64,000 bases of DNA from contig OZ024743.1 of assembly GCA_964016885.1 (NCBI GenBank), forward strand, positions 121,148,001-121,212,000, in the 5' to 3' direction. The DNA comes from Eledone cirrhosa. Taxonomy: Eukaryota. Below, one piece after another: positions 52,300 to 52,491 of this stretch (position 1 is the stretch's first letter; the number at the start of each line of letters is the position of its first letter). The notes under the pieces are model-generated. The model saw nothing but the letters and a program-made list of their open reading frames with translations, was not told the origin of the DNA and ran no database searches. The position numbers and the translations under genes were made by a program.

Positions 52300-52304
<5 letters not shown>

Positions 52305-52487
52305 GGAAATGTGGTACGGAACCAGATGGACCATAACGCACCAAAGTACTCAATACTTAGGGTAGTAGAGTGGGTAATAAGAACGAGTAGGACCCCGACG
52401 GCTGAGCTCAAGCCGTTTCGACGGCTAATTCAGTCCAGAATTAGCCGTCGAAACGGCTTGAGTTCAGCCGTCGGGGTCCTACTCGTT

Positions 52488-52491
<4 letters not shown>
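52300..52491 (-). mobile_element. Palindromic short element, copy 6 (near-perfect ~55 bp hairpin, 6-nt loop)
   Basis: GAACGAGTAGGACCCCGACGGCTGAGCTCAAGCCGTTTCGACGGCTAATTC-AGTCCA-GAATTAGCCGTCGAAACGGCTTGAGTTCAGCCGTCGGGGTCCTACTCGTTC; (TA)n flanks. Confidence 0.88.

What the first reader, a model, noticed from the sequence alone, without database searches (positions are those of the whole stretch)
52300..52491. Short palindromic element family with co-varying arms (6 copies)
Seen at 5219, 5639, 9932, 29376, 37741 and 52300, always at (TA)n: a hairpin at one end and a conserved ~75 nt tail at the other (tail absent at 37741). Outer arms differ between copies (AGTATGACC / TAGTCAGAA / CGAGTAGGA) yet stay complementary, and hairpin length varies from ~24 to ~55 bp. 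Each long arm has a nested stem GAAAC-GGC..GCC-GTC, which is the stem III/GUC half of a hammerhead. Inference: the palindrome is regenerated at each insertion by fold-back copying of a PLE or retrozyme 3' end, the same asymmetric layout as 40563-41921. A Helentron-like MITE is the alternative.
Basis: partly seen in the sequence, partly recalled or inferred. Interest (0 to 1): 0.7.

Follow-up and report, generated by a model that had tools for sequence, protein, structure and literature searches.

The report
Penelope retrotransposon stubs joined head-to-head
These palindromes are tiny insertions of a Penelope-like jumping gene, with an estimated hundred thousand copies in TA repeats, and each was likely built from two short DNA copies that started on opposite strands, likely ran off the start of the element's RNA and were likely joined head to head.

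Summary
The six copies are real (five events: 5220/5640 are one duplicated insertion). They are not a MITE or retrozyme: the tail runs into a 3,531-bp Hydra-clade Penelope-like element (PLE) with intact RT/GIY-YIG frames, whose long insertions carry the same two inverted ends, one tailed, one tailless. This layout is in print (PMC8557442). Estimated 100,000 copies (20 in 600 kb). The stem is the 3' half of a U3-A8 hammerhead. Fold-back copying is disfavoured: either arm can hold sequence the other lacks (22 vs 17 of 78), and in 4 of 13 young long insertions neither arm contains the other. Arm ends pile up 54-64 nt from the tailless end, often with an extra C, pointing to a capped RNA start inside the ribozyme. 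Best reading: priming on both strands of a TA break at two sites 80 nt apart, run-off, then joining (about 0.65; untested). The scan reached similar readings before on other DNA of this genome. New member of a known kind; moderate interest for the PLE mechanism.

The parts
52302..52377 (-). PLE 'tail' (80 nt in the parent; the outer bases are lost here), read antisense on +; holds a 4-bp/2-nt bulge/4-bp hairpin
52378..52431 (-). tailed arm, 54 nt of the pLTR (hammerhead stem I 3' strand, cut site, stem III, GAAA, part of stem II 3' strand)
52432..52491 (+). tailless arm, 60 nt, beginning exactly at the inferred RNA +1; 6 nt longer than the tailed arm; predicted ribozyme cut after 52472
52266..52301 (.). 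(TA)n target, tail side
52492..52524 (.). (TA)n target, tailless side
29377..29575 (-). older subfamily copy: tail 29377-29453, tailed arm to 29515, non-parental C at 29516 and 3 more inserted bases, tailless arm 29520-29575
9932..10062 (-). short-armed copy of a third subfamily (arms about 25-27 nt)
5640..5778 (+). copy joined through the self-complementary stem III (13-nt overlap), full tail
5220..5329 (+). local duplicate of the 5640 copy, tail cut short
37742..37827 (+). decayed copy of a divergent subfamily; tailless end intact, tailed side lost
   Evidence: (match by eye to L237)

Best explanation
The elements are the shortest insertions of a Hydra-clade Penelope-like retrotransposon, each likely made of two separate cDNAs, one likely primed on each strand of a cut (TA)n, that likely ran off the capped 5' end of the element's RNA and were likely joined head to head. 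Shown: the tail and arms are the pLTR of a 3,531-bp PLE with intact RT + GIY-YIG frames; long and short insertions share the same two ends; the apex varies but rarely passes position 64. Inferred: the RT starts at two RNA sites 80 nt apart (the tail is the gap), each just 5' of a like bulged hairpin; the RNA starts inside hammerhead stem II at an initiator-like A, so cDNAs primed near the 5' end stop after 60-64 (or about 140) nt, often adding a cap-templated C; end joining with short overlaps or small inserts gives the variable apex; a minority stop at the ribozyme cut site. Identity about 0.97; the mechanism about 0.65.
For: Parent element: L031; 21 frames of 784 codons, 99.3-100% alike, in 20 stretches; tandem period 3,531. 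Two inverted ends, one tailed and one tailless, in 14 of 18 long stretches; in 4 of 13 simple ones neither arm is contained in the other. Short copies not selected on arms: tailless longer 22, tailed longer 17, within 4 nt 39, of 78 (p = 0.52 for symmetry). Wall: of 121 such tails 53 end before position 50, 60 at 50-64, 4 at 65-100, 4 beyond; contig depth in run X4 rises from 1,285 to 9,977 across the same place, and from 22 to 91 in X5, another organism. Extra base after position 60 on tailed arms: C 13, G 2, T 0 of 15 (p 3e-5); the parent has A in the young family. One clean two-subfamily chimera at the usual joint (L106). Twin hairpins of the same geometry 6 and 4 nt beyond the two ends. 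In vitro another PLE cuts and extends both strands and starts at two internal sites that bound the tail (PMC11167929).
Against: No transcript 5' end was seen, so the start site and cap are inferred from junctions alone. The extra-C classes were set after looking; on tailless arms the count is mixed (C 5, G 6, T 4 of 15, most G being the other arm's C); only 1-2 long parents exist for the older subfamilies, so a parental C is not excluded there. Arms nearly always match in subfamily, as fold-back also predicts; one apparent chimera (L018) is explained by its neighbour. Later deletions in palindromes can mimic asymmetry in old short copies. Young long arms run through the inferred start without stopping. 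PMC3846280 reads junction palindromes as self-priming.
Confidence: 0.65

Rival explanations
1. Fold-back: one cDNA primed at the tail end snaps back on itself and is copied to the tailless site, where the endonuclease resolves it (first reader; close to the self-priming and EN-resolution ideas in print).
For: Arms alike within a copy; 39 of 78 nearly symmetric; apex inserts are sometimes palindromic; 5220/5640 turn in stem III; 9 of 13 long insertions have one arm contained in the other; PMC3846280 and PMC8557442 passages.
Against: Tailless arm longer in 22 of 78 short copies, the focal copy included by 6 nt; 4 of 13 young long insertions cannot be made this way; copies with no shared arm at all, e.g. 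L156, L159, L189; chimera L106; a shared T/G site differs between arms in 6 of 15 arm-selected copies of one subfamily (ascertainment may inflate this).
Confidence: 0.2
2. Two primed cDNAs, but the wall at 54-64 is an RT stall at a hairpin in stem II's loop or a splice acceptor, not a capped 5' end.
For: The folded parent has a hairpin whose 3' strand spans these positions; two AG dinucleotides lie there; D. virilis Penelope has an intron ending at its hammerhead (PMC4209133).
Against: The extra C is followed by varied bases, not a fixed exon; both stops lie at a pyrimidine-A step that fits the initiator consensus (recalled), with a TATA-like word 25-31 nt upstream (by eye).
Confidence: 0.13
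3. A self-standing non-autonomous element (Helentron-like MITE or retrozyme) copied as a unit.
For: Very high copy number; subfamilies; TA flanks.
Against: Apex differs from copy to copy; the sequence is colinear with a PLE ORF; no short tandem units; short copies lack the 5' half of the ribozyme.
Confidence: 0.02

Closest known systems
Hydra clade of C-terminal EN+ Penelope-like elements (Craig et al. 2021, PMC8557442), e.g. Hydra-1_Obim
   Same: RWK-type, DKT, CxCx5C, CxxC and CxH motifs, no CCHH pair, (TA)n target, hammerhead in the pLTR; 22 of the first 42 residues identical to Hydra-1_Obim (by eye); inverted 5'-truncated copy with one-sided tail.
   Different: A distinct family: 3.5-kb unit (most Hydra are under 3 kb), U3-A8 core with long stem II against ctgaagag in Hydra-1_Obim, tail 80 nt against the 30-40 bp quoted; two tail motifs gave no hit in that paper's supplement; most copies are 100-200-bp stubs.
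Poseidon of Anolis, PAc (Frangieh et al. 2024, PMC11167929)
   Same: Two internal RT start sites bounding the tail, near the pLTR-ORF junction; both strands cut and extended; AT-rich target.
   Different: Other clade; the text read does not derive the inverted ends from two-strand priming or report a run-off stop.
U3-A8 hammerhead variant of Schistosoma Cercyon PLEs (PMC4209133)
   Same: Same core co-variation in a pLTR.
   Different: Here a full stem III and long stem II; activity not tested.
Non-LTR retrozymes (bioRxiv 10.64898/2026.07.22.740005)
   Same: Hammerhead-bearing, protein-less, PLE-derived.
   Different: Those are tandem head-to-tail units with whole ribozymes; these are head-to-head stubs with half a ribozyme.
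LINE-1 twin priming and LTR minus-strand strong-stop DNA (recalled)
   Same: Priming on both strands giving an inversion; short cDNA running off a capped 5' end.
   Different: Here both priming sites are fixed and both arms are ends of the same pLTR.

Membership tests
EN+ Penelope-like element | Single ORF with RT and C-terminal GIY-YIG | tested here: met
   716 aa after the Met; FDI 252, YRDD 347, VIY..YIG to 605; 2,215 homologues, best 120 at 39-54%. Pfam and PDB scans gave 0 hits, so domains rest on motifs.
EN+ Penelope-like element | pLTRs from partial tandems; inverted 5'-truncated copy; one-sided tail | tested here: met
   14 of 18 stretches show both ends
Hydra clade | RWK, DKT, CxCx5C linker, CxxC and CxH, no CCHH cysteine pair | tested here: met
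   RLRWR 34, DKT 116, CxCx5C 571, CxxC 669, CKH 697; one Cys only between the GIY and YIG strands; DKT/S in 119, RW[KR] in 115, CxCx5C in 113 of 120 homologues (definition)
Hydra clade | (TA)n target | tested here: met
   115 of 121 tail ends abut TA repeats
Hydra clade | Placement in the clade by RT tree | not tested
   no tree built; by-eye likeness to Hydra-1_Obim only
Type I hammerhead | Three helices round a CUGANGA/GAAA/UH core | tested here: inconclusive
   Parent folds as a three-way junction (z -0.79); core U3-A8 in 16 of 29, C3-A8 mismatch in 12 of 29, decayed in 1; 95% of cells paired, 1 two-sided change, not above shuffles (190 of 500). Short copies hold only the 3' half.
Type I hammerhead | Self-cleavage | not testable with these tools
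   indirect: 11 of 329 arms end within 1 nt of the predicted cut, both arms in L063 and L081 (counted by hand)
Helentron/HINE or MITE | Fixed internal structure; link to Rep-helicase or transposase | tested here: not met
   variable apex; linked to a PLE ORF
Non-LTR retrozyme | Tandem short units each with a whole hammerhead | tested here: not met
   only 3,531-bp ORF-bearing tandems seen; short copies are single and inverted

The most novel reading that the evidence does not exclude
PLEs replicate like a double-ended LTR element: twin bulged hairpins near the mRNA 5' end place an RT dimer to prime on both strands of the target, giving strong-stop cDNAs; the promoter inside the hammerhead keeps the 5' copy uncut while the whole 3' copy cuts itself, leaving about 44 nt of terminal redundancy for a strand transfer that yields full-length and tandem copies. 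The 100,000 mini-palindromes are transfers that failed, a fossil record of the PLE cycle.
Probability: 0.3. Interest if true: 0.75.

Novelty: new member of a known kind. Interest (0 to 1): 0.45.

Why it matters
How PLEs build their inverted ends and tail is open: papers offer self-priming or endonuclease resolution, and one in vitro study shows two start sites. A young, intact, very abundant family with thousands of readable joints makes the rival models directly testable and supplies an active-looking RT/EN. The stubs also scatter perfect 50-60-bp hairpins at roughly one per 30 kb, a likely source of double-stranded RNA for editing or silencing if transcribed (untested). The class and layout themselves are known.

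Tried and rejected
Rfam scan of the window: 135 matches at E up to 1, none at gathering score, no hammerhead. CUGANGA..GAAA pattern in the window: 15 loose matches, none in the six copies. No RNA holder listed, so expression, start site and editing were not examined; contigs cannot show starts. Tail-only search for the youngest subfamily returned nothing (common words are skipped), so that subfamily's short copies are few in my sample. Pfam and PDB: no hits. Hammerhead covariation not above shuffles. The window's own PLE ORF at 8191-9201 is not the parent (other motifs, other ends). L018 and L015 'chimeras' dropped (neighbour copy; mis-parse of two elements). Whole-region fold of the tail did not give the twin hairpins (z -1.7); they appear in local folds only. 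Target-site duplications cannot be read in (TA)n. Paper searches for a strong-stop, strand-transfer or two-strand model of PLE ends (listings only) gave none beyond PMC11167929 and PMC3846280; the library lacks most subscription papers. Search by sequence of earlier notes: nothing.

Full report
Observation. All six places are real. The focal copy is (TA)n, a 76-nt tail (52302-52377), a 54-nt arm, a 60-nt inverted arm ending at 52491, and (TA)n; it folds with z = -17. The copies at 5220 and 5640 share flanks and are one insertion duplicated. 37742 is a decayed member without tail.

Parent. A search of the own 3.0-Gb genome with the tail and arm gave 790 candidates, 40 scored, 30 fetched. The apex differed from copy to copy; 8 of 30 ran on into shared upstream sequence and 1 into another PLE family. 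Nine were translated; three led into a GIY-YIG frame of this family. L031 is a near-whole, broken element: TA, inverted tailless end, RT-EN frame, 3' UTR, hammerhead, tail, TA. A protein search listed 150 matches of 72,284 candidates; 20 stretches chosen for long frames held 21 frames of 784 codons, 99.3-100% alike, with a Met 716 residues from the end. The unit is 3,531 bp and forms seamless tandems. Motifs match the Hydra clade as defined in PMC8557442 section 11; Pfam and PDB gave no hit; 2,215 homologues exist, the best 120 at 39-54%.

Abundance and target. Sixty evenly spaced 10-kb stretches held 20 tails in 599,800 bases: about 100,000 copies, Poisson range 61,000-154,000; only 1 of the 20 had a long arm. 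115 of 121 tails not selected on their arms abut TA repeats. Contigs of a second organism hold the same ends.

Hammerhead. Upstream of GAAAC the parents read UUGA-N-AA with N = G, C, U or A (16 of 29 distinct segments), CUGAGAA (12, all in the 52300 lineage, a predicted inactive mismatch) or a decayed form (1) (the pattern was built on this core). U3-A8 is a variant known from a Schistosoma PLE (PMC4209133 passages). The minimum-energy fold is the three-way junction but not more stable than shuffles, and covariation on 7 sequences is not above its control. 11 of 329 arms end within 1 nt of the predicted cut, both arms in two copies (two false rows removed and one mis-scored row added by hand): a weak hint of cleavage in vivo.

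Ends and apex. Of 18 long stretches, 14 show one tailed and one tailless end, inverted (two had an end outside the stretch, two no inverted arm). Leaving out one rearranged case, the tailless arm is longer in 9 of 13 and in 4 of 13 neither arm is contained in the other, which fold-back cannot give. Among 78 short two-ended copies not selected on arms, the tailless arm is at least 5 nt longer in 22, the tailed in 17. Arms are more alike within (3.4 of 36) than between copies (7.4) (50 copies), so they nearly always come from the same subfamily; L106 is one clean cross-subfamily join, L018 is explained by its neighbour. Arm ends hit a wall: of 121 tails, 53 end before position 50, 60 at 50-64, 8 beyond; contig depth steps up 8-fold there in run X4 (not a copy number). 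Of 51 tailed arms that reach position 60, the next base is A (parental) in 24, C in 20, G in 7; among the 15 not explained by a direct join it is C in 13 (p 3e-5; 11 of 13 after dropping two doubtful rows). Tailless arms are less clear. The window's 29377 copy shows this C at 29516, and the focal tailless arm starts exactly at position 60. Both stops (60, 64) fall on a pyrimidine-A step like the initiator consensus, and an extra C opposite a cap is known for other RTs (both recalled; one search listed no paper that I read). Each insertion end is followed, 6 and 4 nt on, by a 4-bp/2-nt bulge/4-bp hairpin; in 111 tails variation sits mostly in its loop, bulge and one adjacent G (no compensatory change seen).

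Mechanism. Likely: the protein cuts both strands of (TA)n and primes at the two sites; near the mRNA 5' end the cDNAs run off after 60-64 or about 140 nt and are joined by short overlaps (0-5 nt common) or small templated inserts. PMC11167929 (main text read) shows two-strand cutting and extension and two start sites bounding the tail for another PLE. PMC8557442 (introduction, section 11, passages, supplement rows) describes the inverted copy and tail and ascribes the tail to endonuclease resolution; PMC3846280 (passages) favours self-priming. Listings showed no paper with a run-off or strand-transfer model for PLEs; the library is partial. The retrozyme preprint (first fifth read) concerns tandem units, not seen here. 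PMC5625713 (passages) reports heavy editing of Penelope in lizard and abundant dsRNA in an octopus, which bears only on possible consequences.

Limits. No RNA evidence; older subfamilies have few long parents; decay of palindromes can mimic asymmetry; searches score only the best 40 candidates.

Earlier notes. My reading was written before the look-up. Eight notes on other DNA of this genome reach the same class; several also propose two-strand priming, a capped 5' end or twin hairpins; one argues for a single RNA template. They are not independent support.

Verdict. Real; a new family of a known clade with a published layout; the joints give a testable, unproven view of the PLE cycle. Interest 0.45.

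Noticed in passing
window 40563-41921: A different family with the same layout: 83-nt tail, tailed arm about 100 nt, tailless arm about 1,175 nt; other copies turn near 175 nt from the tailless end (966 candidates, 14 fetched). Parent ORF not found.
   Followed up: partly
window 5940-9840: Inverted PLE insertion of another clade (cysteine pair inside the GIY-YIG at 8191-9201; N-terminal part on the minus strand with an Asn/His-rich repeat), both ends in TA, no tail seen.
   Followed up: partly
L009 / L264, after the arm: A 57-nt tailed arm of this family is joined at the usual apex to a sense fragment of another Hydra-like family (32% amino-acid identity): a possible two-family insertion; the far end was not verified.
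   Followed up: partly
L047 about 5355-5365 and all long parents: A 10-nt palindrome of the CC(A/T)6GG type just upstream of hammerhead stem I is kept across otherwise diverged subfamilies; role unknown.
   Followed up: no
L063, L081: Minimal 38-40-nt palindromes whose two arms both end at the predicted ribozyme cut site.
   Followed up: partly
L048 2251-2732: Repeated short jumps between 3' UTR and tail sequence inside one young arm, suggesting RT template switching.
   Followed up: no
window 43691-44998: RT fragments flanked by 174-nt inverted arms, 98% complementary.
   Followed up: no
window 60384-63809 (-), 17855-20802, 22409-24960: An open 1,141-codon non-LTR RT frame and two broken relatives.
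   Followed up: no
L018, L130, L189, L201, L242: Elements often sit side by side in one TA run, so each insertion's flanks become targets for the next.
   Followed up: no
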